Below, in pieces: positions 1 through 19,942 of a stretch of 64,000 nucleotides of DNA. Origin of the DNA: an uncultured Thermoplasmata archaeon (lineage in GTDB: Archaea > Thermoplasmatota > Thermoplasmata > SG8-5); NCBI GenBank assembly GCA_964354755.1, contig CAYHBA010000005.1, positions 13,014 to 77,013 of the forward strand, in the 5' to 3' direction. The notes beneath the pieces are model-generated. The model searched no databases. It was not told where the DNA came from and saw nothing but the letters and a program-made list of their open reading frames with translations. Each line of letters starts with the position of its first letter. Positions within the stretch are counted from its first letter, which is position 1. Position numbers and translations under genes: made by a program.

Positions 1-2135
1 TGACAACGAACCTGATGGTGACCTGCTGCTTGTAGAACACTGTCTCCGGGTCAATGGTCTGCTCGGAGATTGCCACGTCCTGCGTGAACTTGCTGGTGAT
101 GTTCCCGAGCCACAGTATGGCCTTGTAGGCGTACTGGCACTGCGTGGCTGTGTCGCTGATCCTGGAGAATTCCCAGGTCTGCGCCAGGATTCTCGAATCT
201 ATTATAGTGTCCGATGGATAATCGTCGGAATTATAGGAAAGAGCGTAAACCCTGGTGTTGGCGCTGTCGTTCAGCGCTATTCTGGGCTTGTCCGGTATGT
301 CGTTGTAGCCCCAGTAATAGGCAGAGTCGGTTCCTGCGACTCTCACCTCGGTATTGATTGGGATATCTGCGAAGTAATCGGTCACCGGGTGCGAGGCATT
401 TCCGTACAGCTCTGTCGGAAGCGGAGCGATATTGCCAGCCGAAGGAATGCTGACATGTAGATATGCGTTCGCGAAGGTTGCGAGGCTCGACGTGGTCTGC
501 GCTTCGGTCCAGAAGCCCTGGCTGATGAGCCATAAGCTCCCGCCGTTCAGACCGTCTATGACTGTGCCGTTGGGATTACCCGTAAGGTATTTTTGCAGGT
601 TGGCCACGTCGTCGGTCCTGTCGGACCACGGGGCATTGGACACGGTGAGAGTCTTGCTTGTCCGGTATCCGGTCATCCAGATGACCACGTCGTAATCCAT
701 GAGCGGGTAATCCCCGTAATTGTATCCGGGGCCGTCACCCGCGCCGACAATAGTGAAGTCGTACTCGAAGTCCGCGGACTCCAGCGAGGCGCGCATGAAG
801 GATACGGTGTCGCTGTCGCTCAGGTCATTGACATGCGAATCGTCGTCCACCAGTAGTATCTTCGGCATGACTGATATATTGGTGTAGTTCGTGTTGTCCG
901 TCATGTCCGGGTCATAGAAATCCGCGGTGACCGTGGCAGGGCTGACTTCCGCATAGACGATAATCATGTGAACGCCGCCGGGCGATGCCAACCAGGACAC
1001 CTTTGCGTCCTGCTGGCCTACCTCAGGGACCAGTATGGTCCTCGGAACCGTGTTGATGAGGCTGGCAGCGTTTAGGTAGTCCATGTAGAAATACACGTCG
1101 ACATTGGCGCCCTTCCCGCCCAGGTTGAGTATCGTGGCAGTTATCTCGACGGTGTCGCCGTTCGTGGGCTCCGGGTTGCTGAATGTGATGTATTCATATT
1201 TATCTGTCTCGGGATTGTTCCCCTTGACGACTATCTGGGGTTTCTCTCCCACAATCTGGCCGACCGGGAACCTTCCTGCAAACATTGACGAATGTCCTGT
1301 GATATCGGTCGCATTGAAGATGAACATGTAATAACCTATGGGTATCTTGAACGGGCCGTTGCTGTAGGCGACATAGATGTTGTCGTTCGGCGCGTCCCGC
1401 GAGTCAAGCACATCCTGGAGCTGTATGGGCGATATCGTGGAATTGAAGATGGAGCTCACATTGACCCAGAGGTCGCTCTTGTTAAGGCCGTTAACCGTGT
1501 CGAATCCCTCCGGGTCGACAATCTCAGCGTAGATCTTGAACTGCTTCTCGAACCCGATGGGGCCGTAATCGTCCACCTCCGGCGTGGCCAGGTCGCTGTC
1601 TATCCAGGCCCTCTTTATTATCGGGCCGTAGTTGTTCGCGCCCTCGCCCAATGTCTCGTGCCAGACCAGGGCGTTCTTCTCCTGGTCGATGATGGTGATT
1701 GTGTACACAGCGTTCGGGTCCAGTGCCACGGGCATTACTTCCACGTTGGATATTCTATAAACCCACCATTCCCCGACACCCCAGTTTGAATCGCCATTCA
1801 CGTCGGTCGAGTTGAGACCGTCAGCCACACCCTTAGTGAGCATCTTGTTGTCCACGGTTATGTATATCTTTATCCACAGTGGGTCCATCACCTGGCCGCC
1901 CTGGTGCAGCACCCTGAAATCCACGCCCTGCGTCCAGTCATCCTGGTTTACCGGCTTCAGGCTGCACTTCAGGTCCACGATGAAGGTCTGCCTCGGGGCC
2001 GGCATTGAGCCGACCATGGTGATTATACTCGAGAAAAGGACAACTGTGATGCTCAGCATCAGAATGGTCCCGATAATCTCGCTCACACCGGATTTCTCCC
2101 AAACAATCCGTCTCCTGATCATGTGTTCTGCCATA
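1..2135 (-). CDS. Large secreted/surface protein with an N-terminal archaeal class III (type IV pilin-like) signal peptide. The C-terminal part runs off the left edge of the window (partial).
   Basis: A continuous minus-strand reading frame runs from ATG (rc of cat at 2133-2135) to position 1, >700 codons with no stop, translated by eye. The N-terminus reads MAEHMIRRRIVWEKSGVSEIIGTILMLSITVVLFSSII, matching the [K/R]G-hydrophobic-E class III signal pattern. The mature part is rich in N-x-S/T sequons and Thr/Asp, typical of glycosylated surface proteins. An AT-rich TATA-like box (tataaata) and a purine run lie upstream. Confidence 0.6.
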
Positions 2136-2303: not shown

Positions 2304-3278
2304 CTAGACAACTCTCTTTTTCGAGACCTTCTTCGCGGGCTTCGTCTCAATCTTCGTGCCGCATGCATAGCACATGACCGCGTCGTTGCTGATCATGGTT
2401 CCGCAGGACGGGCAGGGTATTTCCTCTTCGCCGCCGGCCGGGGCTTCCTCAGCCGGAGCCTCCTCGCTGCCGATCTTCGTGCCGCATGCATAGCACATGA
2501 CCGCATCGTTGCTGATCATGGTTCCGCAGGACGGGCAAGGCACTTCCCCCTCGGCTGCGGCTGCAGCCTCCTCTTTGACTGGCTCCGGTTCAGGTTCGGC
2601 CTCTGGTTCCGGCGCGGGTTCCTCTTCGGGCTCGGCTTTGGCTGTTTCGCCCACAGGCACTGGTTTCACGGCGCCGCGCAGCTGCTCCTCTTTGTCCAGG
2701 AGCTGTTGTTCCTTCTCTAACAGCTTTTTGGCGTCCTTCATCAGTTTGTCCTTATTGGCACCGAGTTCCTTTTCCTCCTTGGTAAGAGCCCTTTCTCTCG
2801 AAAGAATCTCTTCTGATTTGGATTTGAACTCCTCGAGAAGCGAGGCCATGTCCGATGCCGTGACCTTTGCCTTCTCGCCTGCTTCGATGAAGATCTTTCT
2901 CTTGTTGGCAATTTCGTCTTCGAGCTTCTTTATCTCTTCCTGCCTCTTCAGGATGTCCTGCTCTTGCGAAGAGAACTCCTTCTGCCTGCGTGTAATTTCA
3001 GCTTCTCTCGATTTCAGGTTGTTCTCTAGCTCAAGGATGGAATTCTTATGCGCCTCGAAGTCCTTCTGGTCATTCTTCAGTTTGGCGGACCTCTTCTCAA
3101 GGTCCCTCGTCTTCGAGTCAAGTTCATTTTGTTTGGAAGCCAGTTCCTTCTCATTGGCCTCGATGGCCTTGGTCTGTTCCTGGATGTCCAGGGCTTTCTG
3201 GCGGAGCTCCTGCTCTTTCTGCTTGAACTGCTCGGCCTGTTTCTGCATAACCTCCCAGATTGATGGTTCCTCACCCAA
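2304..3278 (-). CDS. Coiled-coil protein with two tandem C-terminal C4 zinc-ribbon modules
   Basis: 324-aa ORF. The N-terminal ~200 aa are strongly K/E/Q-rich heptad-like sequence (QKQAEQFKQKEQELRQKALDIQEQ...), then an acidic P/E/A linker. The module PCPSCGTMISNDAVMCYACGTKI occurs twice, 41 aa apart, encoded by a 123-bp tandem DNA repeat. Confidence 0.7.
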   Translation of the reverse strand: MGEEPSIWEVMQKQAEQFKQKEQELRQKALDIQEQTKAIEANEKELASKQNELDSKTRDLEKRSAKLKNDQKDFEAHKNSILELENNLKSREAEITRRQKEFSSQEQDILKRQEEIKKLEDEIANKRKIFIEAGEKAKVTASDMASLLEEFKSKSEEILSRERALTKEEKELGANKDKLMKDAKKLLEKEQQLLDKEEQLRGAVKPVPVGETAKAEPEEEPAPEPEAEPEPEPVKEEAAAAAEGEVPCPSCGTMISNDAVMCYACGTKIGSEEAPAEEAPAGGEEEIPCPSCGTMISNDAVMCYACGTKIETKPAKKVSKKRVV

Positions 3279-3356
3279 AGGGATTCCTCCGTTTCACTTA
3301 TGATATTGGTCGACATGGATACTTTGATACATTAAGTATTTTTGCTATATGAGCGG

Positions 3357-4067
3357 TCATTCGCCCGTGTCAAATATCGGCCCAAGGACAACTATGCCGT
3401 CCTTGGCGACCTCCACGGCATGCTTCTCCATGCTGTGCTGCGAAGCCCTCATCTTCTCGACCTGGAGATACCTGACCAGCTTTCCGCGGTTCCTGTCGAG
3501 GCCCAGCATTATGATCCCGTCCACCAGGAAACCCTCGTTGCCGAGCATCTGCGATTCTCCGCCAGCGGCTCTTTCCATCACGATGAAGGCCGTGATATTG
3601 TTGTCCCTCAGCATCTTGAAGAAGTAGAACATGCGCTTCCGCATCTTCGAGACATCCTCCATCAGAGAATAAAGGGCACCCAGGGAGTCGAGGCAGAACA
3701 CGGAGAACTTGTCCCCGTACTTTTTCTTGAAGTACATTATCATCTTCTCGACGAATTTGATGTAATCTGTTTCCTCGCCCTGGTCGACTACCTTGTCCAC
3801 TTCCCTCAGGTCAGTGAAATCGGAAATCTGCATGTGCGGCGAAAGCTTGATTCCCAAGCTCTTCATGTTCCTGAGATGGCTTTTGGATGTTTCCTCCAGG
3901 GTGCAGTAAAGTCCGAACTGGCTCACAGATTCCAGGTATCTCGACATCAGCGTGTAGCAGAAGCTTGTCTTCATGGAACCCGGCGGGCCCGTGATGAGCA
4001 CCACGCAGGGCGGATCAATATCTGTCTTGAACACCTTTTCCATTCCGGGTATCGAGTTCTTGAACAT
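3357..4067 (-). CDS. KaiC/RadA-like single-domain RecA-superfamily ATPase (COG0467-like)
   Basis: 236 aa. Walker A reads VVLITGPPGSMKTSF and a Walker B-like hydrophobic strand ends in D (FSVFCLDSLG). Size and motif spacing resemble archaeal KaiC-like/ArlH-like ATPases. It is co-directional with, and immediately upstream of, the coiled-coil zinc-ribbon gene. Confidence 0.8.
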   Translation of the reverse strand: MFKNSIPGMEKVFKTDIDPPCVVLITGPPGSMKTSFCYTLMSRYLESVSQFGLYCTLEETSKSHLRNMKSLGIKLSPHMQISDFTDLREVDKVVDQGEETDYIKFVEKMIMYFKKKYGDKFSVFCLDSLGALYSLMEDVSKMRKRMFYFFKMLRDNNITAFIVMERAAGGESQMLGNEGFLVDGIIMLGLDRNRGKLVRYLQVEKMRASQHSMEKHAVEVAKDGIVVLGPIFDTGE

Positions 4068-4176
4068 CGCAAACCCCCAAATATTTATTGTCGTGGGCTT
4101 GAAGGCATTTTAGGATTTATACTTACCCGTGCCTCACGCTCTCGCCCATGCATATTCAGTAATTATTAATACCCAA

Positions 4177-5883
4177 ATGAGTTTTACCGATGATAATACA
4201 ATAGGTGATAATCTGGCAGACGGAGCCAATGTGCAAAAAAGTAGGACTTGCCCAGTATGCGACGAGGCTGTTCCGCCCGATGCCCAGGTATGCCCTTCCT
4301 GCAGCACTGACCTATCGCTTTTCTCAGCCGATGACTCAGGCGGCGACCTGACAGACCCCGAGGAGCTTAAAAGGTCGCTGTTGTCAGCAGAAAATGGGCA
4401 TGTGGCTGAGCTTCTTCACGCGGCCGAGGACAACCTCCCGCCCCTTCCTCCGAAACCGTCCGCGGCAGAGTCTGGCGAGTCCGCCGAATGCCCTGCATGC
4501 CACAAATCCATAGCCATGGAGGCAGTGAAATGCCCGCATTGCGGCGTCGAGTTCGTTATAGAAGAGGTGTTCGAGTGCCCGATGTGCGGAACGCTTGTGG
4601 ATATTCATGTCAATAAATGCCCCAGCTGCAACGCAGAGTTCGTGGACGAAGCTGAACCGGCCGCCTCACAACCCCCGGTCCAACATGCGGCAGCCCCGAA
4701 ACCGCCCCAGCCCGAGCCCAAGCTCGAGCCTGCCAGTTTCGTCGACAGGCTCAGGCAGATGAAGGATGAAGGCCCGTCAAAACCGGCTGAATCTGCCCAG
4801 CCCAAGAAGGAACTGTCATTTGCGGAGCGGATGAAATTGATGAAGGGCGACAAACCGGCTGAGGTTGCGCCCGCGCAACCAGCTCCGACAACCCCGGCTC
4901 GGCCCCCCTCCCAGGCAGCCTCGAAGCCTCAGGCACAGCCGCAGAAGGTTCCTCCGCAGGCAACCCAGGCAGCAGCCCAGCCCAAGAAGGAGGCCAGCAT
5001 CTCGGACAGGGTCAAGTCATTGAAGGATGGGGCAGTTACACAGGCCAAACCCGCGCAGCCGGTGCCGACGCAGAAACCGACCCAGCCCCAGGTTCCGACA
5101 CCCGAGGCATCTGTGAAGGAGGGATACAAGGAACTGCCTGTTTACATCGGCGAGGTGAAGAAACTGCTTATCATAGCCAATAATCTTTACATTGATGTTT
5201 CAACGAGCAAGGCCCTCATCAACAGGGCCGTATCGGCCGGAAAGACCCGGGACCTGGAGAATGCAGTCAAACTCGTCAAGGAGGGCAAGACGGGTCTCGA
5301 GAAGGACATAAGAATCGCAATGCTGTCCAAGCTCAGGACATTAGAAACGGCTCTCTCCCTGGAGAGGAAATCGGGCAAGGACACATCCCCGCAGGAACGG
5401 GCCATCAGCGAATCCAGGAAATCCATCGATGTGGCCGATTTCCAGTCTGCCATAGACACGATGAAAAGGTTGGAGAATCATTTGCTCAGCACTTCAACCG
5501 CCAACCTTTCCCAGGTGGAACTGGAGTCCGTATCCTGCGCGATGGCCGACGCAGACGCCCTTCACCTGAATGTTGGCGAGGCCAAGGCATTGTACAATGC
5601 CGCTGTGCAGGCCAATGCCCAGAAGGATTCACAGAAATTGGCTCAGTATTCAAAGCAGGCAACCGAAGTGCTCAACAAGGTCTTGCCCCCCTACATCTCG
5701 GCCGAGATGAGGAAGGCCAAGGTCACCCTGAGGGAAATCAAAATGATGAACGTGGACATCTCCAGCCCGGTGAACCTCCTGAAGGAGGCCAACGATCACG
5801 TTCTCAGTGGCAATTACTGCGCGGCCCTGGGTTCCATTAAAAAATTCAAGGATTTTGTCGATAGGGCACAGCAGCAGGGTTGA
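4177..5883 (+). CDS. Multi-zinc-ribbon protein with a long P/Q/A-rich low-complexity linker and a C-terminal alpha-helical domain
   Basis: ATG at 4177 is in frame with track ORF 4129 (M17). It is preceded by an AT-rich TATA-like stretch and is likely leaderless. At least four C-x2-C...C-x2-C ribbons are present (CPVCDE..CPSC, CPACHK..CPHCG, CPMCG..CPSCN). A ~200-aa P/Q/A/K-rich linker is followed by a conserved helical C-terminal domain. Confidence 0.7.
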   Translation: MSFTDDNTIGDNLADGANVQKSRTCPVCDEAVPPDAQVCPSCSTDLSLFSADDSGGDLTDPEELKRSLLSAENGHVAELLHAAEDNLPPLPPKPSAAESGESAECPACHKSIAMEAVKCPHCGVEFVIEEVFECPMCGTLVDIHVNKCPSCNAEFVDEAEPAASQPPVQHAAAPKPPQPEPKLEPASFVDRLRQMKDEGPSKPAESAQPKKELSFAERMKLMKGDKPAEVAPAQPAPTTPARPPSQAASKPQAQPQKVPPQATQAAAQPKKEASISDRVKSLKDGAVTQAKPAQPVPTQKPTQPQVPTPEASVKEGYKELPVYIGEVKKLLIIANNLYIDVSTSKALINRAVSAGKTRDLENAVKLVKEGKTGLEKDIRIAMLSKLRTLETALSLERKSGKDTSPQERAISESRKSIDVADFQSAIDTMKRLENHLLSTSTANLSQVELESVSCAMADADALHLNVGEAKALYNAAVQANAQKDSQKLAQYSKQATEVLNKVLPPYISAEMRKAKVTLREIKMMNVDISSPVNLLKEANDHVLSGNYCAALGSIKKFKDFVDRAQQQG

Positions 5884-5890
5884 ATTCCGG

Positions 5891-8191
5891 CTATTTCTGG
5901 AGGAAGCTGACTATCTCCATCTCCCTTTCAAGTATTTTCAGGCCCTGTTCATCAATGGTCTCGGGCGTCACCGATGTTATGAATATGGCATCGCTTTCCG
6001 AGACCTCGTCGATGAGCCTCCTGAGGAATCTCAGCACGGCATCGAAGTTGTTGTTGCTGATAAGATAGTCAAGGCCGTCTATGAGCAGCACTGATTTCCC
6101 CGGGGAATTGAGGAAGTCCTCTATTCTGTAAATTATCCTCTCCAGAACAGGCATGACCCTGTTATCAGAATCGCCCTCCTTGTCTGTCAGCCACAGTATG
6201 GAGGCATCTCCGATGTCGAACTGCTCCCTCACGCGCTTCGGGTTGATTCTGGTCAGGGCAAAGCCCTTCATGCCCACGTTCAGATTGTCCACGAAGTACT
6301 CGAAGCACTTGACTGGTCTTTCCTCCTCGATGAGGTAGCTGTGGGAAATTTTCAGGCTCTCCTCCCTTTTGTGAATGGGCGCAATCTCCGCGGTGACCTT
6401 CACCTCCTCCTCCGGGACATTGTCCTCGGGCAGCTCGTCCTTGAGGGCCAATTTGGCTGTTTCGGTGGTGATGGGCACCTTCATGAGTTCCGAATAAGCC
6501 GCCAGGGTTTTCAGCGCCCCTTCCAGCATGCGGATGTTCCTGACGTACCTCTTTGCGATGTAGTACACGACATCGTCGCCCAATACGATTTTCTTGGCTT
6601 CCGCCTTTTTCTTGAGTATTGCCTGCCTCGTTTCAATGTCTGGCGGCAGCATTTCTGTGGCAAGGCCGGCGTCGAACCTCGATACCAGCCTCTCCTTCAT
6701 GCCGGAAACCTCCCTTATCGGGCGGTCGCAGGTCATGACAATCTGCTTCCCGTCCTTGTAAAGGGCGTTGAACATGTGGAAGAACTCGTCCTGCACAGCT
6801 TCTTGGCCAGCGATGAAATGCACATCGTCCAGGAGGAGGAAGTCCAGGTCCCTGTATTTCTTCCTGAACTGTTTCTTCTTGTTTCCTTTGATGGCATCGA
6901 TGAATTCGTTGATGAATTTCTCCGCCGAGACATACAGCACCCTCTTGTTGGAATAGTTCTCGGAAACATAGTTGCCTATGGCATGAAGCAGGTGGGTCTT
7001 TCCCAGCCCGGTGCAGCTGCATATGAACAGGGGATTGTACTGAGATGTCCCGGGTTTGGCCACGGCCGTGGCTGCGGACTGGCTGAATCTGTTGGATTCG
7101 CCCACGACGAAATTGTCGAAGGTGAAGTTAGGGATGAGGTTGGACTCCCCGATGGGCCGCGGCACATCGCCCAACGGCGAATTGTCCGCCCCGCATGTGG
7201 GGCATTCCATTTTCCCGTAAAGCCCTGCGCCGCACACCGTGCATTTGTCATCGTGCATCTTCTCGGGCGGGAAAATATCCCCCTGGCCGCCCAATTTTTC
7301 CTCCGCATCTTCCTCTGGCATTTCCGACTCCGAAACTGTAACGAGCTCCTGGGATGCCTGGACAGTGGAAGGCGATGTGGCTTTCTCCGGCGTCTCCGAG
7401 TCCTCGGCCAGGTATTGCGCCAGCTTATCCTCCCTCTTTTTGACCTTTTCAAGCTCTACCTTCAGTTTCAGCCCCTGGATGGCCGCCTCTATCGCGGTGA
7501 TCTTCGAGGGATTCTTCAGCATGGCCCTGATGCGCTCCACATCCGTGCTGAACATCTTGCAGTCAAGGGTTTCCATTTCTTTTTTGAGGAACTCGGCCCT
7601 TTCCAGATTCGCTCCGAACTGGTTGAAAGCCAGGGTTGCGCCGGCAGGGTTTTTCTGAAGCTCCTCCTCAAGAGGCTTGACAATGTATCCCCGCGACCGC
7701 CAGTCATCCAGCTTTTTCCTGAGTTCCTCTGGCGCACCGGCGATGTCCGCGGCCGCGGCCTGCTCCTCCTCCTCTCCCCAGGCCAGGGAAAAGCGTGTCC
7801 TCCTTTTGACCACCTTTTTCTCGGTCTTCACGACATTTGAGCTGGGATATTTCTGGAGAATATCGGATATGTCCAGCCTGCCATGGACCTCCAACAGGGC
7901 TTCGGGCTCGTATGTGTCCCCCCAGGCGAGCTTCAGACCCTCCTCGCCCAGCTTCGTGGGGACGAACCGACCTTCAGTCTGCCGCCCATAGATGGCCGCG
8001 ATGAGCACACCGTCCCTGATGACAAGGTACCCCTCGGAAGTGTAATTGTCGCGTTTCCGCTTGGTGAGCATATAGCCGGAGAAACCGAACTTCTTCAGCT
8101 TCTCGATGCTGAGTTCCAGAGCCTTTGGGCTGCCGTGTATGGTGCTCAGCACCTTACCCTCTGGGATGCCTTCGCTTGCGATATGCAACAC
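5891..8191 (-). CDS. Multidomain protein: N-terminal alpha/beta domain, coiled coil, C4 zinc ribbon, bacterial-DnaA-type AAA+ ATPase (DnaA domain III), and a C-terminal DUF835-like domain
   Basis: 766 aa. The central ~230 aa align residue-by-residue with E. coli DnaA domain III as recalled: FTFDNFVVGESNRF...YNPLFICSCTGLGKTHLLHAIGN (Walker A), DFLLLDDVHFIAGQEAVQDEFFHMFNAL (Walker B/sensor), TCDRPIREVSGMKERLVSRFDAGL (box VII Arg finger), and IAKRYVRNIRMLEGAL (sensor II). A zinc ribbon CTVCGAGLYGKMECPTCG lies upstream. The C-terminal ~130 aa (ALTRINPKRVREQF...LLIDGLDYL...) resemble DUF835. No DnaA domain IV HTH is present. Confidence 0.8.
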   Translation of the reverse strand: MLHIASEGIPEGKVLSTIHGSPKALELSIEKLKKFGFSGYMLTKRKRDNYTSEGYLVIRDGVLIAAIYGRQTEGRFVPTKLGEEGLKLAWGDTYEPEALLEVHGRLDISDILQKYPSSNVVKTEKKVVKRRTRFSLAWGEEEEQAAAADIAGAPEELRKKLDDWRSRGYIVKPLEEELQKNPAGATLAFNQFGANLERAEFLKKEMETLDCKMFSTDVERIRAMLKNPSKITAIEAAIQGLKLKVELEKVKKREDKLAQYLAEDSETPEKATSPSTVQASQELVTVSESEMPEEDAEEKLGGQGDIFPPEKMHDDKCTVCGAGLYGKMECPTCGADNSPLGDVPRPIGESNLIPNFTFDNFVVGESNRFSQSAATAVAKPGTSQYNPLFICSCTGLGKTHLLHAIGNYVSENYSNKRVLYVSAEKFINEFIDAIKGNKKKQFRKKYRDLDFLLLDDVHFIAGQEAVQDEFFHMFNALYKDGKQIVMTCDRPIREVSGMKERLVSRFDAGLATEMLPPDIETRQAILKKKAEAKKIVLGDDVVYYIAKRYVRNIRMLEGALKTLAAYSELMKVPITTETAKLALKDELPEDNVPEEEVKVTAEIAPIHKREESLKISHSYLIEEERPVKCFEYFVDNLNVGMKGFALTRINPKRVREQFDIGDASILWLTDKEGDSDNRVMPVLERIIYRIEDFLNSPGKSVLLIDGLDYLISNNNFDAVLRFLRRLIDEVSESDAIFITSVTPETIDEQGLKILEREMEIVSFLQK

Positions 8192-8298: not shown

Positions 8299-8724
8299 AT
8301 GGGGAACGTGTATAAGGGTGCGATAAGCATGCTCACCGAAATCAGCGAACTGTTGGGAATGGAAGTTTACACAGACAAGGGAATAGCCCTGGGCAATGTC
8401 GACGATCTCATCATCGAGACCGACACCCAGAGGATAGACGGACTCTTCATCGGAAATCCGAATCCGCTTCTGGTCGAGCACTCCAAGCCTGTCAGCGTGC
8501 CCTACAGATGGATAAACAATGTCGGCGATGTTATTATACTCAAGTATTTCCCGAAATTCGTGCAGACCGGTGCATCTCCGGAGCGCGTGCCCAAGGTGAG
8601 GAAACTTGCCGATGAGATGAGGCAATTTGCCCATACTACCGAGGAGAAGCTTCTTCATGCGGAACATGCGGCCGCCGAGAAGCTGAAGGGCAAGCCCCTG
8701 TCAGAGGAAATCAAGGAAATCTAA
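8299..8724 (+). CDS. PRC-barrel domain protein
   Basis: 141 aa. The sequence ELLGMEVYTDKGIALGNVDDLIIETDTQRIDGLFIG matches the PRC-barrel consensus. TATA-like elements (tatataag 8255-8262, tataaaag 8284-8291) lie upstream. Confidence 0.7.
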   Translation: MGNVYKGAISMLTEISELLGMEVYTDKGIALGNVDDLIIETDTQRIDGLFIGNPNPLLVEHSKPVSVPYRWINNVGDVIILKYFPKFVQTGASPERVPKVRKLADEMRQFAHTTEEKLLHAEHAAAEKLKGKPLSEEIKEI

Positions 8725-9690
8725 TCAGATTTTCCTTATCTTGCCCATCATGGGTTCGTATATCATGCCTTTGTCCAGGAGTCCTTCCGCGGCACCGTCG
8801 AAAGCCTCCTTCTTCAGGCCTGCCTTCTTGGCAGCTTTCTCGAGCACATCCCAGTCGATTCCGGCGGCCTTGGGATCGGTGCTGGTTATGACCTTCAGCA
8901 ATTTCTCCTCATCGGCGGTCAGCTCCTCATCGCCCTCAGCTTCAGGCGCGGGTTCAGGTTCCGCGGCCGGCGGTGCAGGCGGCGTGTCTATGCCCTCCTC
9001 AACTTCCTCGAACTCGGGCGGTTCGATATCCTCTGTTTCCTCGGATTCCGGAATATCCGGGGTTCCGCCCTCCTCGGGTATGAGGTACCTCAGGCAGTCG
9101 ATGAGCATTGTATGGTATTTGTCAAGCGGCACATCCCCGTAATGGTCCCTTGCCCTGACTATGCCCTCTGCAAGGTTCTGGCCGTAACCCAGTTTCACCA
9201 ACGCCTCCGCGGAAAGGCCATCCATCTTGACAGCTTCCCCGGCTGCGTCAAGCCTGTGCCTGAGGCTTATACAGCTGTCAAGCACCCAAATGTCCCTCGC
9301 TGATTTTTCCATCTGCTTGACTGTCTCCGGCCGCACCGAAATGTACATGACCCCGTCCTCGGGCGAATACACCCTGACCTTGCCTATTATTGCGGCAAAG
9401 CCAGGGACAGTGAGCTTGGACATGGCCACGGCAGCTTCGGGCTGGAACTGGCCCGCCGAGATGTATGTGGTTCCGGTGGGGTCTATCAACTTGGCCCTCC
9501 ACAATGGCTCCTCGGGCGAGCCCATGTTCTCCAGGTCTGTCACGACGCCCACGATGTAGACGCGGTTGATCTTGGCCCCGAGCGGCGTTATGACATATGT
9601 CGGGGCGCGCTCCTCCTCGCCCTGCATGACCAGGGACGAATCGTTCAGCTCCCCGGCGAACACCCTCCACGCGACTTCCCTTGCGTTCAT
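8725..9690 (-). CDS. OB-fold RPA-associated protein (putative small RPA subunit / RPAP-like) with an acidic linker and a C-terminal helical tail
   Basis: 321 aa, immediately downstream of and co-directional with the RPA gene. An N-terminal OB-like region (INRVYIVGVVTDLEN...) is followed by an acidic P/E-rich linker and a C-terminal helical region. Euryarchaeal rpa-rpap operons are a known arrangement. Confidence 0.5.
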   Translation of the reverse strand: MNAREVAWRVFAGELNDSSLVMQGEEERAPTYVITPLGAKINRVYIVGVVTDLENMGSPEEPLWRAKLIDPTGTTYISAGQFQPEAAVAMSKLTVPGFAAIIGKVRVYSPEDGVMYISVRPETVKQMEKSARDIWVLDSCISLRHRLDAAGEAVKMDGLSAEALVKLGYGQNLAEGIVRARDHYGDVPLDKYHTMLIDCLRYLIPEEGGTPDIPESEETEDIEPPEFEEVEEGIDTPPAPPAAEPEPAPEAEGDEELTADEEKLLKVITSTDPKAAGIDWDVLEKAAKKAGLKKEAFDGAAEGLLDKGMIYEPMMGKIRKI

Positions 9691-9754: not shown

Positions 9755-11062
9755 TCATGATATCTCCTCCAGGATTCTGCGTGCTTCAGCCTGGGTGTCC
9801 ACCTTCGGGTAATCTGTCCCCGAGGCAATCATCATCAGCCCGAACTCGTCGGACGTAACATTCCCGGTGACGCTGATAGGCTTCGCCACCAGCTTCTCGA
9901 AGAGCTGGTCCTTGATTATGCCGTGGTCCATGGCCTTAGTCGCTTCCTTCAGGCACTTGTCCAGGGACTTGCCTAGCAACCTTTCCGTGATATCTCTATT
10001 CATTATAACATTAAGAGCTCCTGTGCCATCATCCACAATTGCCTTGATGCGCAGGTCCGCGATCCCCTCCTGTTGTCCGTGCACCCTGCATACATTCTTC
10101 TGCAAAGCCCGGTTGCATTCCGGGCATCTGAACACCAGGCCGCTGCCCTCCCTGACGTCCAGAATGACGCCGTTGAGGGAGGCGTCCACCATCCCCCCGA
10201 CCCTTGAAAGGTAATCGACACTGACCACGGACGGTTTCTCGAGTTCTTCGCTGGCCGGCATCTTCTCCTTGGACTTCTCGGTATTCGTTGCGTCAAAGTT
10301 CAGCTGCGGCATGCCCCTCCATTTCCTCAGGTAGCCGCTGTTGACCTTGATGATGTCCCCCTCCTTGAACTTGGCCTTGCCCCAGCAGGTAAATGAGACT
10401 TTTCCTGTTTCATCCGCCATTATGCCGGACATGACCTCCTTCTTCTCGCCGCTGACGGTGACTTCCCTGATATCCACGGTCAGGATTCTGGCCACGACCG
10501 AGAGGTTGCCTGTGGCATCCCCCAGGTCGATTATCTTGCAGGCCTTCGCGGTTCTGGGGGCGCCCGTGCCCTTGAACTCTGGCATTTCAGATTTATCCGC
10601 CTTCACGACCCTGCCCCTGTATCCTACATTTACCTGAGGCTCCTCGCGGTACTCGGTGATATAGGCATGCTCCATCCGCACGACGTCGCCCTTCTCCAGC
10701 TTCAGGTCCGCCTTCTCCCAGATTGTGAAGGGCACAGTCCCGGATTCGTCCCCCAGTATCCCAGAGATGATTGCCGTATCCTGCCCGTCCCTCTTGATGG
10801 TCTTCTCGGTGACGAAAACGACCCTGCAGAGCAAATTCACATTTTTATCCAGCGGGGTGAGTTCTTTTATTTGCTTCTTGTCCCCTTCCGGTGAAAACGA
10901 GCTCCCGCCGTGCTTCCTGATGACGAGCCTCGCCGCCTCGTCCGCCTCGAACCTGAACTCGTCCATGTAATGCTTCAGGTCCTTCTCGATCTCTTTCCTG
11001 TCGGCATCCTTGCCGAGCGCCTTCAGAATATCCTCAACATGCTTGTTTTTCTTTTCAGCCAT
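9755..11062 (-). CDS. rpa: Replication protein A (single-stranded DNA-binding protein, multiple OB folds plus zinc ribbon)
   Basis: 435 aa with repeated OB-fold segments (NVNLLCRVVFVTEK..., LSVVARILTVDIREV...) and the C4 motif CPECNRALQKNVCRVHG typical of archaeal RPA1. Confidence 0.8.
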   Translation of the reverse strand: MAEKKNKHVEDILKALGKDADRKEIEKDLKHYMDEFRFEADEAARLVIRKHGGSSFSPEGDKKQIKELTPLDKNVNLLCRVVFVTEKTIKRDGQDTAIISGILGDESGTVPFTIWEKADLKLEKGDVVRMEHAYITEYREEPQVNVGYRGRVVKADKSEMPEFKGTGAPRTAKACKIIDLGDATGNLSVVARILTVDIREVTVSGEKKEVMSGIMADETGKVSFTCWGKAKFKEGDIIKVNSGYLRKWRGMPQLNFDATNTEKSKEKMPASEELEKPSVVSVDYLSRVGGMVDASLNGVILDVREGSGLVFRCPECNRALQKNVCRVHGQQEGIADLRIKAIVDDGTGALNVIMNRDITERLLGKSLDKCLKEATKAMDHGIIKDQLFEKLVAKPISVTGNVTSDEFGLMMIASGTDYPKVDTQAEARRILEEIS

Positions 11063-19866: not shown

Positions 19867-19939
19867 GCCACTGTAGCTCAGTCGGTGGAGCAGCTGATTT
19901 GTAATCAGCAGGCCGGGAGTTCAAATCTCTCCAGTGGCT
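19867..19939 (+). tRNA. tRNA-Thr (anticodon TGT); CCA not encoded
   Basis: Cloverleaf drawn by hand. Acceptor gccactg/cagtggc, D stem gctc/gagc, anticodon stem gctga/tcagc with loop tttgtaa (anticodon TGT), variable loop aggcc, T stem gggag/ctctc with loop ttcaaat, discriminator T. Confidence 0.9.
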
Positions 19940-19942
19940 CTT
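19925..19942 (+). repeat. 18-bp direct repeat copy 1 (3' end of tRNA-Thr: atctctccagtggctctt)
   Basis: Perfect 18/18 identity with 20019-20036. Confidence 0.8.

What the first reader, a model, noticed from the sequence alone, without database searches (positions are those of the whole stretch)
2304..5883. Three-gene module beside the DnaA-like gene: coiled-coil/double-zinc-ribbon protein, KaiC-like ATPase, and multi-zinc-ribbon P/Q-rich protein
On the minus strand a KaiC/RadA-like single-domain ATPase (4067..3357) is followed by a 324-aa coiled-coil protein ending in two identical C4 zinc ribbons (3278..2304). Divergently, a 568-aa protein carries at least four zinc ribbons, a ~200-aa P/Q/A-rich disordered linker and a helical C-terminal domain. 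It ends 8 bp from the stop of the DnaA-like gene (convergent). None of the three matches a characterised family beyond the ATPase fold. Coiled coil plus zinc ribbon plus RecA-like ATPase is reminiscent of chromosome-organisation, division or secretion scaffolds (e.g. ArlH-like, CdvA-like, SMC-accessory proteins). Together with the PRC-barrel gene and rpa just downstream, this may be an undescribed archaeal replication/division-associated system.
Basis: inference. Interest (0 to 1): 0.7.

Follow-up and report, generated by a model that had tools for sequence, protein, structure and literature searches.

The report
KaiC-ATPase scaffold module beside giant adhesins
The three genes are real and, with the neighbouring DnaA-like gene, form a conserved, uncharacterised four-gene set in uncultured Thermoplasmata archaea that usually sits beside giant cell-surface adhesin and pilus-assembly genes, so it more likely serves the cell surface than DNA replication.

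Summary
On the minus strand are a 236-aa single-domain KaiC-family ATPase (B) and a 324-aa coiled-coil protein (A) with two Zn ribbons. On the plus strand is a 568-aa protein (C) with three Zn ribbons (not four), a P/A/Q/K-rich linker and a helical C-terminus.

In 59 related Thermoplasmata loci, counting only those with enough flank:
- A follows B in 50/51.
- C is divergent from B in 45/51.
- The DnaA-AAA+/DUF835 fusion (D) is convergent with C in 35/40.

D therefore belongs to the module. PRC-barrel/rpa synteny is confined to close relatives; elsewhere phosphoglycerate kinase lies there.

A giant surface protein follows A in 35/46 loci. It is pilin-like in this lineage. In distant ones it is a transmembrane CARDB protein whose cytoplasmic tail repeats the Zn-ribbon and basic-tail motifs of C and A. 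PilB/TadC genes or pilins lie within 10 kb in 17/27.

C's C-terminus is four three-helix bundles of an unannotated repeat family (813 representative proteins, up to 7,686 aa).

Best reading (confidence about 0.45): a KaiC-centred cytoplasmic scaffold or regulatory module serving a type-IV-pilus-like adhesin system. It works like ArlH/CirA but is not ArlH. The replication reading is weak. I rate it a new variant of a known kind.

The parts
2..2134 (-). 5' part (at least 711 aa) of a giant pilin-like surface protein. It runs off the window start and has its own TATA-like box in the 169-bp spacer after A.
   Evidence: Pfam Pilin_N E = 5e-11 and NCBIfam arch_flag_Nterm. Full-length relatives are 2259-2558 aa with Pilin_N + CARDB + VWA + Ig-like domains. 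Spacer sequence.
2304..3278 (-). Protein A: coiled coil (about aa 1-205; 2664..3278), acidic/Pro linker, Zn ribbon 1 (2481..2540), Zn ribbon 2 (2358..2417), basic C-terminal tail KKVSKKRVV (2307..2348).
   Evidence: The Zn ribbons CPxCGTMISxDAxMCYACG and the tail KKVxKKxV(V/I) are at least 80% conserved across 44 orthologues.
3357..4067 (-). Protein B: single-domain KaiC-family P-loop ATPase. Walker A is GPPGSMKTS, catalytic LEE(T/S), Walker B (h)LDSLG.
   Evidence: Pfam PF06745 at 124 bits. Closest solved structures are PH0186, PH0284 and KaiC. Motif conservation in 57 sequences.
4068..4176 (.). Divergent intergenic spacer between B and C with two A/T-rich TATA-like boxes.
   Evidence: Read directly from the sequence. 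Promoter function is inferred.
4177..5883 (+). Protein C: three Zn ribbons (4243..4644); P/A/Q/K-rich linker with motifs SFVDRLRQMK, SFAERMKLMK and SISDRVKSLK (4645..5124); C-terminal array of four three-helix bundles (5125..5880).
5891..8191 (-). Protein D: N-terminal alpha/beta domain (7832..8191), helical domain with a W(R/K)SxGY motif (7406..7744), Zn ribbon (7187..7246), DnaA-type AAA+ domain III (6419..7147), DUF835 / inactivated KaiC domain (5918..6304). There is no DnaA domain IV.
   Evidence: Pfam Bac_DnaA E = 1e-63 and DUF835 E = 6e-27. 256 bits to DnaA 8btg, covering domain III only. AF2 model of the N-terminal region, pLDDT 81. Adjacent to C in 35/40 loci.

Best explanation
A, B, C and D form one conserved cytoplasmic module built around a KaiC-family ATPase. 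It serves a type-IV-pilus-like / giant-adhesin cell-surface system of uncultured Thermoplasmata.

Proposed working (inferred unless marked as shown):
- B, a KaiC-like ATPase and probably a hexameric NTPase or autokinase, acts as a nucleotide-dependent switch.
- B partners with the inactivated KaiC (DUF835) domain of D and so gates ATP-dependent oligomerisation of D's DnaA-type AAA+ domain. This is analogous to KaiC-like ArlH working on the ATPase ArlI.
- A (a coiled-coil rod) and C (a rod of three-helix bundles) are elongated scaffolds.
- Their near-invariant Zn ribbons, short [ST][FI]x[DE]R[LMV][KR] motifs and basic C-terminal tail dock them to the ATPases, the membrane, or both.
- They dock at the same site as the cytoplasmic tail of the giant surface protein, which carries the same motifs (the motif sharing is shown; the common site is inferred).
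- The result couples surface adhesin or pilus assembly, or sensing, to cytoplasmic ATPase state.

Shown: domain make-up, motif conservation, gene linkage, and motif sharing with the adhesin tail.
Inferred: every physical interaction, the activity of B, and the direction of signalling.
For: Gene linkage:
- B-A adjacent in 50/51 loci, C in 45/51, D in 35/40, down to 63-70% B identity and only 22-27% identity in C's C-terminus.
- In a lineage with D at 33% identity (L070), all four components still lie within 13 kb.
- A D homologue at 34% identity (L069) has a different KaiC-like gene divergently adjacent.

Surface context:
- A giant surface-protein gene directly follows A in 35/46 loci.
- T2SSE (PilB3-like) plus two T2SSF (TadC) genes, or Pilin_N proteins, lie within 10 kb in 17/27 loci.
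- In the distant clade the giant protein has a signal/TM anchor, CARDB/MG2 domains, one TM helix and a cytoplasmic tail of about 220 aa. That tail holds a double Zn ribbon 40-50% identical to C's, a DYKE(K/R)M(R/K) motif resembling C's SFAERMK, a Zn ribbon like A's, and a basic tail like A's.

KaiC partnership:
- DUF835 is described as an inactivated KaiC domain (PMC5847659).

Literature:
- KaiC-family ATPases, double-Zn-ribbon proteins and coiled-coil proteins were already noted as predicted regulators in archaeal type IV pilus loci. Methanomassiliicoccus lacks secretion ATPases (PMC4858521), and no named Methanomassiliicoccus genome was hit in the scan with B.
- The KaiC-like protein CirA regulates motility and cell shape in Haloferax (PMC10983859).

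Alternatives excluded:
- No defence-system or viral signal.
Against: - The giant adhesin is absent next to A in 11/46 loci, including relatives 89-91% identical in B (L003, L005, L056, L061).
- No PilB/TadC genes occur in this 64-kb window. The pilin-like gene appears to have its own promoter.
- C and D are not adjacent to B-A in six to seven loci.
- No interaction has been tested.
- B's Walker A has Met in place of the usual Gly before the Lys, so its ATPase activity is uncertain.
- A DnaA-type AAA+ domain about 50% identical to bacterial DnaA domain III has no precedent in pilus systems.
Confidence: 0.45

Rival explanations
1. A general KaiC-based signalling hub with no specific tie to pili or adhesins. 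B with the iKaiC domain of D senses or times some cellular state, and D's AAA+ domain is the output. A and C are adaptors. The surface genes next door are a frequent but incidental neighbourhood.
For: The core B-A pair is more conserved (50/51) than the adhesin link (35/46). Several lineages have housekeeping genes on both sides. DUF835 also occurs fused to receiver and PAS domains in archaeal signalling proteins (PMC5847659).
Against: The giant protein's cytoplasmic tail shares the Zn-ribbon, DYKERMK-like and basic-tail motifs with C and A. That is hard to explain as coincidence. The same position after A is occupied by two non-homologous kinds of giant surface protein in different clades.
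Confidence: 0.25
2. One reading: a replication-, chromosome-organisation- or division-associated system. D acts on DNA as a DnaA-like initiator or regulator, B acts as a RadA/KaiC-like partner, and A and C are SMC-accessory-like scaffolds.
For: D's AAA+ domain scores 256 bits and is about 50% identical to DnaA domain III, with Walker A/B, sensor I/II and the arginine finger readable in the alignment. rpa and a PRC-barrel gene are adjacent in this lineage. Paralogues (about 1,500 aa) built from C's repeat lie directly after smc-scpA-scpB in two diverged genomes. B's PDB hits include the RadA paralogue SSO2452.
Against: D lacks DnaA domains I and IV, the DNA-binding domain. TIGR00362 scores 334.2, just below its cut-off of 343.9, and matches only model positions 55-348 of 437. 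PRC/rpa synteny is lost outside close relatives and replaced by pgk. No replication gene is consistently linked.
Confidence: 0.12
3. A mobile defence or selfish module: ATPases plus Zn-ribbon proteins acting against viruses or plasmids.
For: Multi-ATPase, Zn-ribbon gene sets are common in defence islands (general knowledge). A Y1 transposase and PIN-domain genes lie a few kb away in L061.
Against: PADLOC gives only spurious coiled-coil hits. No viral-contig relatives were found. B is 63-93% identical across a whole class with stable flanks (pgk, gyrase), which is the pattern of a vertically inherited housekeeping-like gene.
Confidence: 0.03

Closest known systems
ArlH (FlaH), the KaiC-like ATPase of the archaellum motor, which binds the secretion ATPase ArlI
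   Same: A single-domain KaiC-fold ATPase of about 230 aa, encoded beside type-IV-pilus-type machinery and cytoplasmic scaffold proteins. B's proposed role as a nucleotide-state switch acting on a second oligomeric ATPase mirrors this.
   Different: B scores 27 bits against the ArlH cut-off of 215. No arl genes are nearby. The partner ATPase is a DnaA-type AAA+/iKaiC fusion rather than, or in addition to, a PilB-type ATPase. Walker A has Met in place of Gly.
KaiC-family ATPases predicted as regulators of archaeal type IV pilus loci and as 'signal transduction hubs' (Makarova, Koonin & Albers 2016, PMC4858521; Makarova et al. 2017, not held), and CirA of Haloferax volcanii (PMC10983859)
   Same: The same protein family in the same kind of neighbourhood. 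Double-Zn-ribbon and coiled-coil cytoplasmic proteins were also noted in such loci.
   Different: Those papers (as far as held) do not describe this A-B-C-D set, the DnaA-AAA+/DUF835 fusion, or C's repeat family. The lineages concerned are uncultured Thermoplasmata that were barely sampled in 2016.
Bacterial DnaA / Hda
   Same: D's AAA+ domain is a bona fide DnaA-type domain III.
   Different: No domain I, II or IV and no DnaA-box-binding HTH. D carries N-terminal alpha/beta and helical domains, a Zn ribbon and a C-terminal iKaiC domain. The host is archaeal. Source annotations as 'chromosomal replication initiator protein DnaA' are probably wrong.
HP0958 (Helicobacter pylori flagellar biogenesis factor): a coiled-coil hairpin plus Zn ribbon, cited by Makarova 2016 as an analogue for coiled-coil proteins in archaeal type IV pilus loci
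   Same: A also combines a long coiled coil with C4 Zn ribbon(s) in a surface-filament gene context.
   Different: Pfam Zn_ribbon_9 scores only 16 bits against a cut-off of 29. A has two or three ribbons after a disordered linker and a conserved basic tail. No homology is shown.
EzrA / spectrin-like repeat rods
   Different: The repeat is about 62 aa, not about 106. No sequence similarity. Foldseek finds no significant whole-domain match.

Membership tests
KaiC/RadA-like ATPase family (Pfam PF06745) | Profile match above the gathering score over the whole P-loop domain | tested here: met
   B: 124 bits against 26.6, residues 4-228 of 236.
KaiC/RadA-like ATPase family (Pfam PF06745) | Canonical Walker A GxxxxGK[ST], Walker B and catalytic Glu pair | tested here: inconclusive
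   Walker B (LDSLG) and LEE(T/S) are conserved. Walker A is GPPGSMKT, with Met replacing the Gly before Lys in 56/57 orthologues. The effect on activity is unknown.
ArlH (archaellum) | NCBIfam NF052589 equivalog score of at least 215 | tested here: not met
   27.3 bits.
ArlH (archaellum) | Encoded in an arl operon with arlI/arlJ and archaellins | tested here: not met
   No arl genes in the window or the loci. The neighbours are PilB3-like T2SSE, T2SSF and Pilin_N adhesins.
Circadian KaiC | Two tandem KaiC domains (about 500 aa) with KaiB/KaiA partners | tested here: not met
   Single domain of 236 aa. NF006799 scores 80.5 against 408. No KaiB-like gene was seen nearby.
DnaA (chromosomal replication initiator) | AAA+ domain III | tested here: met
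   Pfam Bac_DnaA at 214.6 bits. 256 bits to PDB 8btg.
DnaA (chromosomal replication initiator) | C-terminal DNA-binding domain IV and N-terminal domain I; full-length equivalog score | tested here: not met
   No Bac_DnaA_C hit. TIGR00362 scores 334.2, below its cut-off of 343.9, and matches only model positions 55-348 of 437.
DUF835 / inactivated KaiC (iKaiC) | PF05763 match above the cut-off; no Walker A lysine motif | tested here: met
   D residues 630-758: 94.6 bits against 33.1. No GK[ST] in that stretch (read directly). The iKaiC assignment comes from PMC5847659.
CdvA | N-terminal PRC-barrel followed by a coiled coil and an ESCRT-III-binding tail | tested here: not met
   A has no PRC domain. 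The nearby PRC-barrel gene is separate and not conserved in synteny.
SMC accessory proteins (ScpA/ScpB) | Match to the SMC_ScpA or SMC_ScpB profiles | tested here: not met
   No such hits for A or C. A's SMC/Rad50 hits are weak coiled-coil similarity far below the cut-offs.
Archaeal type IV pilus locus | Class III signal peptide pilin(s) | tested here: met
   Window 2..2134(-): Pilin_N E = 5e-11. Relatives.
Archaeal type IV pilus locus | PilB-type secretion ATPase and TadC/PilC membrane protein in the same locus | tested here: inconclusive
   Present within 10 kb in 10/27 relatives with enough flank. Absent from the 64 kb of this window. The side beyond the window start cannot be seen.
MIT domain / MIM1 motif pair (ESCRT) | Three-helix MIT fold that binds a (D/E)xxLxxRLxxL(K/R) helix | tested here: inconclusive

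The most novel reading that the evidence does not exclude
The module is the cytoplasmic half of a previously unrecognised trans-envelope machine. Rod-like Zn-ribbon scaffolds (a coiled coil and a spectrin-like array of three-helix bundles) tether giant adhesins or pili to two ATPases. One of these is a bacterial-type DnaA AAA+ domain that still engages single-stranded DNA. On this reading the system would be a contact-dependent DNA uptake or exchange apparatus, or a cortical cytoskeleton that senses the surface. C's repeat family, with proteins up to 7,686 aa (some beside smc-scpAB or inside a ubiquitin-like operon), would be a Thermoplasmatota-specific cytoskeletal building block.
Probability: 0.1. 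Interest if true: 0.85.

Novelty: new variant of a known kind. Interest (0 to 1): 0.55.

Why it matters
KaiC-like ATPases are proposed to be the main archaeal signalling hubs, yet almost none has a known partner or output.

This module offers a compact and very well conserved case:
- B is 63-93% identical across a class.
- It has defined candidate partners: an iKaiC domain fused to a DnaA-type AAA+ ATPase, and two rod-like Zn-ribbon proteins.
- It has a plausible output: giant adhesins and a type-IV-pilus-like system whose cytoplasmic tail carries the same docking motifs.

Three practical points follow:
- Genes annotated as 'chromosomal replication initiator DnaA' in archaeal MAGs are probably misannotated.
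- A large, unannotated helical-repeat family that builds some of the largest archaeal proteins has come to light.
- The work yields concrete interaction hypotheses that AlphaFold-Multimer or pull-downs could test directly.

Tried and rejected
- **ArlH membership:** rejected on score and context.
- **Replication link via PRC/rpa:** rejected by synteny. pgk replaces them in the distant clade.
- **Defence system:** PADLOC returned only spurious coiled-coil hits to JetC.
- **Viral or mobile origin:** no relatives on viral contigs.
- **MIT domain for C's bundles:** no Pfam hit even at E <= 10.
- **Homology between D's helical region and C's repeats:** hhalign probability 0.6%, rejected.
- **Direct B versus DUF835 similarity:** none by BLASTP.
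- **Makarova et al. 2017 (mBio) on KaiC hubs:** could not be read because it is not held.
- **The window's own contig:** looking up the window's own A and C proteins in the contig collection failed, and the look-up with B found only a 4.4-kb contig. The region beyond the window start therefore stayed unseen.
- **afdb50 fold library:** unavailable.


Full report
**1. Observation.**

The ORF list and Pfam/NCBIfam scans confirm the three genes. I call them A, B and C.

- **A (2304..3278, minus strand, 324 aa).**
  - About 205 residues rich in E, K, L and Q, with weak SMC/Rad50-type coiled-coil similarity.
  - An acidic, proline-rich linker.
  - Two C4 Zn ribbons identical over 22 residues. They lie on a 101-nt direct repeat with 87% DNA identity.
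  - The tail KKVSKKRVV.
- **B (3357..4067, minus strand, 236 aa).**
  - A single-domain KaiC-family ATPase (PF06745, 124 bits).
  - Its nearest solved relatives are Pyrococcus PH0186 and PH0284 and cyanobacterial KaiC.
- **C (starts at the ATG at 4177, 568 aa).**
  - Three Zn ribbons, not four.
  - A linker of about 160 aa rich in P, A, Q and K, carrying three conserved motifs: SFVDRLRQMK, SFAERMKLMK and SISDRVKSLK.
  - A helical C-terminal domain of about 250 aa.
Directly after A on the minus strand, and running off the window start, is a gene for a protein of at least 711 aa with an archaeal type IV pilin N-terminus.

**2. The neighbouring 'DnaA-like' gene (D, 5891..8191, minus strand, 766 aa).**

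D is a multi-domain fusion.

- A helical domain with a W(R/K)SxGY motif.
- A conserved KRRTRFSLxWG motif.
- One Zn ribbon.
- A DnaA-type AAA+ domain III, about 50% identical to that of PDB 8btg (256 bits). The alignment shows the Walker A/B, sensor and arginine-finger regions.
- A C-terminal DUF835 domain (94.6 bits).

There is no DnaA domain I or IV. TIGR00362 matches only model positions 55-348 of 437 and scores 334.2, below its cut-off of 343.9.

Galperin et al. 2018 list DUF835 as an inactivated KaiC-like domain (PMC5847659). D therefore carries a degenerate copy of B's fold.

**3. Conservation.**

B is very well conserved. More than 100 clusters at 90% identity are 69-92% identical to B, and every named one is from Thermoplasmata or Thermoplasmatota MAGs.

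A scan of one genome per GTDB species gave 59 loci. The closest is Methanomassiliicoccales archaeon UBA147 at 93%, and no named Methanomassiliicoccus genome was hit.

tblastn of the window proteins against these loci, counting only loci with enough flank, gave:

| Partner | Position relative to B | Loci |
|---|---|---|
| A | directly downstream | 50/51 |
| C | divergent | 45/51 |
| D | convergent with C | 35/40 |

This holds although C's C-terminus is only 22-27% identical in the distant clade, and A's coiled coil only 23-30%.

The exceptions (L010, L012, L014, L029, L040, L048) have housekeeping genes upstream of B.

Two very distant D homologues extend the picture.
- L070 (D 33%, B 66%) keeps D convergent with a C-like gene. 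About 6 kb away, behind gyrB and gyrA, lie B and an A-like gene.
- L069 (D 34%) has a different KaiC-like gene (29% identical to B) divergently adjacent to D.

So the conserved unit is four genes. The KaiC/iKaiC pairing is its deepest feature.

**4. What is not part of the module.**

The PRC-barrel gene, the 321-aa gene and rpa are syntenic only in the closest relatives (L001, L006, L009, L056, L061-L063). In the distant clade, phosphoglycerate kinase lies upstream of D. The replication/division reading that rested on these neighbours is therefore not supported.

**5. What is next to the module instead.**

Close relatives:
- A is followed by one or two giant proteins of 1,861-2,558 aa with Pilin_N, CARDB, VWA and Ig-like domains.

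Distant clade:
- A is followed by a 940-1,570-aa protein. It has a signal/TM anchor, a beta-helix-like region (judged from the sequence, not scanned), CARDB/MG2 domains, one TM helix and a cytoplasmic tail of about 220 aa.
- This gene is followed convergently either by a PilB3-like T2SSE ATPase and two T2SSF (TadC) genes, or by a Pilin_N protein.

Counts:
- A giant surface-protein gene follows A in 35/46 loci with at least 3 kb of flank.
- Pilus ATPase/TadC genes or pilins lie within 10 kb in 17/27 loci with at least 9 kb.

The association is frequent but not universal. It is absent in L003, L005, L056 and L061. This window has no PilB/TadC genes in its 64 kb.

**6. Motif sharing.**

The cytoplasmic tail of the distant-clade giant protein contains four elements:
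- a double Zn ribbon 40-50% identical to C's ribbons 2-3;
- directly afterwards, a DYKE(K/R)M(R/K) motif resembling C's SFAERMK;
- a third ribbon (CPTCGTLNSVTATVCHKCG) resembling A's;
- a basic tail (ILKKIVKK / QKRVIKK) resembling A's.

Across 44 A orthologues, the ribbon CPxCGTMISxDAxMCYACG and the C-terminal KKVxKKxV(V/I) are at least 80% conserved, while the coiled coil drifts freely.

This pattern suggests that these short elements are docking modules for a common partner. It is the strongest single argument that the module and the surface protein work together.

**7. C's C-terminal domain.**

- AlphaFold2 (18 sequences; pLDDT 86, pTM 0.73) predicts four tandem three-helix bundles of about 62 aa each, joined pairwise by continuous helices.
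- A profile search of 1.84 billion representative proteins found 813 with E <= 1e-3 and 168 with E <= 1e-30. They fall into two classes:
  - C-like proteins of 450-600 aa;
  - giants of 1,400-7,686 aa with up to 45 matched stretches.
- All named members but two short fragments (labelled Planctomycetota) are 'hypothetical protein' from Thermoplasmatota, Thermoplasmata or Euryarchaeota MAGs.
- In L055, a B-like KaiC (54% identical) is followed directly by a protein of more than 3,300 aa made of this repeat (hmmsearch E = 9.5e-48, 12 domains).

The repeat therefore looks like a rod- or scaffold-building unit that recurrently accompanies this type of KaiC.

**8. Mechanism proposed.**

Shown:
- domain architectures;
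- conserved catalytic motifs in B (LEE, LDSLG), together with an unusual Walker A, GPPGSMKT;
- DnaA-type AAA+ motifs visible in D's alignment to PDB 8btg;
- gene linkage;
- motif sharing with the adhesin tail.

Inferred:
- B acts as a nucleotide-state switch that engages D through its iKaiC domain, by analogy with the stacked KaiC domains and with ArlH working on ArlI.
- This controls oligomerisation of D's AAA+ domain.
- A and C are elongated scaffolds that use their Zn ribbons, short motifs and basic tail to link the ATPases to the membrane and to the adhesin or pilus system.

This fits earlier comparative genomics, which found KaiC-family ATPases, double-Zn-ribbon proteins and coiled-coil proteins in archaeal type IV pilus loci and predicted them to be regulators (PMC4858521). 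It also fits the motility and shape phenotype of the KaiC-like protein CirA (PMC10983859). Confidence is about 0.45.

**9. Rivals.**

- **A general KaiC signalling hub with incidental surface neighbours (0.25).** The B-A pair is more conserved than the adhesin link, which favours this. The shared tail motifs argue against it.
- **A replication or chromosome system (0.12).** The DnaA-type AAA+ domain, rpa and the PRC-barrel gene in this lineage, and the smc-scpAB-linked paralogues of C's repeat favour it. The missing DNA-binding domain and the loss of synteny argue against it.
- **A defence or mobile module (0.03).** PADLOC and viral-contig scans were negative, and the inheritance pattern is vertical.

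**10. Novelty.**

Full-text searches for combinations of KaiC, DnaA, DUF835, Thermoplasmata, Thermoplasmatota, Methanomassiliicoccales, pilin and zinc ribbon found nothing describing this set. The key 2017 paper on KaiC hubs could not be read, so prior mention there cannot be excluded.

I class the finding as a new variant of a known kind. The known kind is KaiC-centred accessory modules of archaeal type-IV-pilus-like systems. It has three new elements:
- the DnaA-AAA+/iKaiC fusion;
- the A-type protein combining a coiled coil, Zn ribbons and a basic tail;
- an unannotated helical-repeat family.

Interest: 0.55.

Noticed in passing
window 5125..5880 (C's C-terminal domain); proteins P0270-P0416: C's four-bundle domain defines a large helical-repeat family with no Pfam model. 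It has 813 representative proteins, including giants of 1,400-7,686 aa with up to 45 repeat stretches. Named members are all 'hypothetical protein', nearly all from Thermoplasmatota/Thermoplasmata MAGs.
   Followed up: partly
L065/L066 8001..12476; L067 7001..11518: Paralogues of about 1,500 aa built from the same repeat (one with a C-terminal Prok-RING-like Zn finger) lie directly downstream of smc-scpA-scpB, on the same strand, in two diverged genomes. They may be SMC-associated proteins.
   Followed up: partly
L068 6138..18316: A 3,106-aa repeat giant with a faint C-terminal Prok-RING_1 hit sits in a gene string ThiF (E1-like), giant, 84-aa ORF, UQ_con (E2), JAB. This looks like a ubiquitin-like operon in which the giant may act as an E3-like component.
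   Followed up: no
L055 130..10827: In an uncultured archaeon, a B-like KaiC (54% identical) is followed directly by a protein of more than 3,300 aa made of C-type repeats. The ORF is interrupted by a run of N. It has an embedded alpha/beta segment that looked Roadblock-like by eye but had no Pfam hit.
   Followed up: partly
window 3357..4067 (B, Walker A near residue 27-35): Walker A reads GPPGSMKT(S), with Met where P-loops almost always have Gly before the Lys. This is conserved in 56/57 orthologues and in the extra paralogue (GSPGTMKTS). The consequence for nucleotide binding is unexplained.
   Followed up: partly
L042 7650..8372; also L046, L051, L053, L054: One sublineage carries a second KaiC-like gene inserted between D and C. 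It scores 121 bits to PF06745 and is about 26% identical to B.
   Followed up: no
window 5891..8191 (D); proteins P0153-P0189: JGI and NCBI name D orthologues 'chromosomal replication initiator protein DnaA' or 'DnaA/Hda family protein'. They lack domain IV and carry DUF835, so the initiator name is probably a misannotation.
   Followed up: yes
proteins P0192-P0269 (e.g. P0223): Bacterial proteins of about 640 aa, mostly from Gemmatimonadaceae, carry two tandem DnaA ATPase domains. The linker between them has a short similarity (EWRTQGY...LE..L; pairwise E = 0.005) to D's W(R/K)SxGY helical region. This hints that D's helical and AAA+ parts may share a bacterial source.
   Followed up: partly
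window 8299..8724, 8725..9690, 9755..11062: A PRC-barrel gene, a 321-aa gene with no Pfam hit, and a multi-OB-fold RPA-like gene. In relatives the rpa gene and the 321-aa gene overlap by 4 nt, which suggests an operon and a possible RPA partner. The block is syntenic only in close relatives.
   Followed up: partly
L042 979..3472: A TackOD1 output-domain protein next to a family-2 (BcsA-like) glycosyltransferase lies a few kb upstream of D in one lineage.
   Followed up: no
window 2350..2573: The two Zn-ribbon units of A lie on a 101-nt direct repeat (87% identity, spacing 123 nt). Orthologues have one to three units, so the ribbon number changes by tandem duplication.
   Followed up: yes
window 19867..19940: tRNA-Thr (TGT). 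It is the only tRNA and the only Rfam match in the 64 kb.
   Followed up: yes
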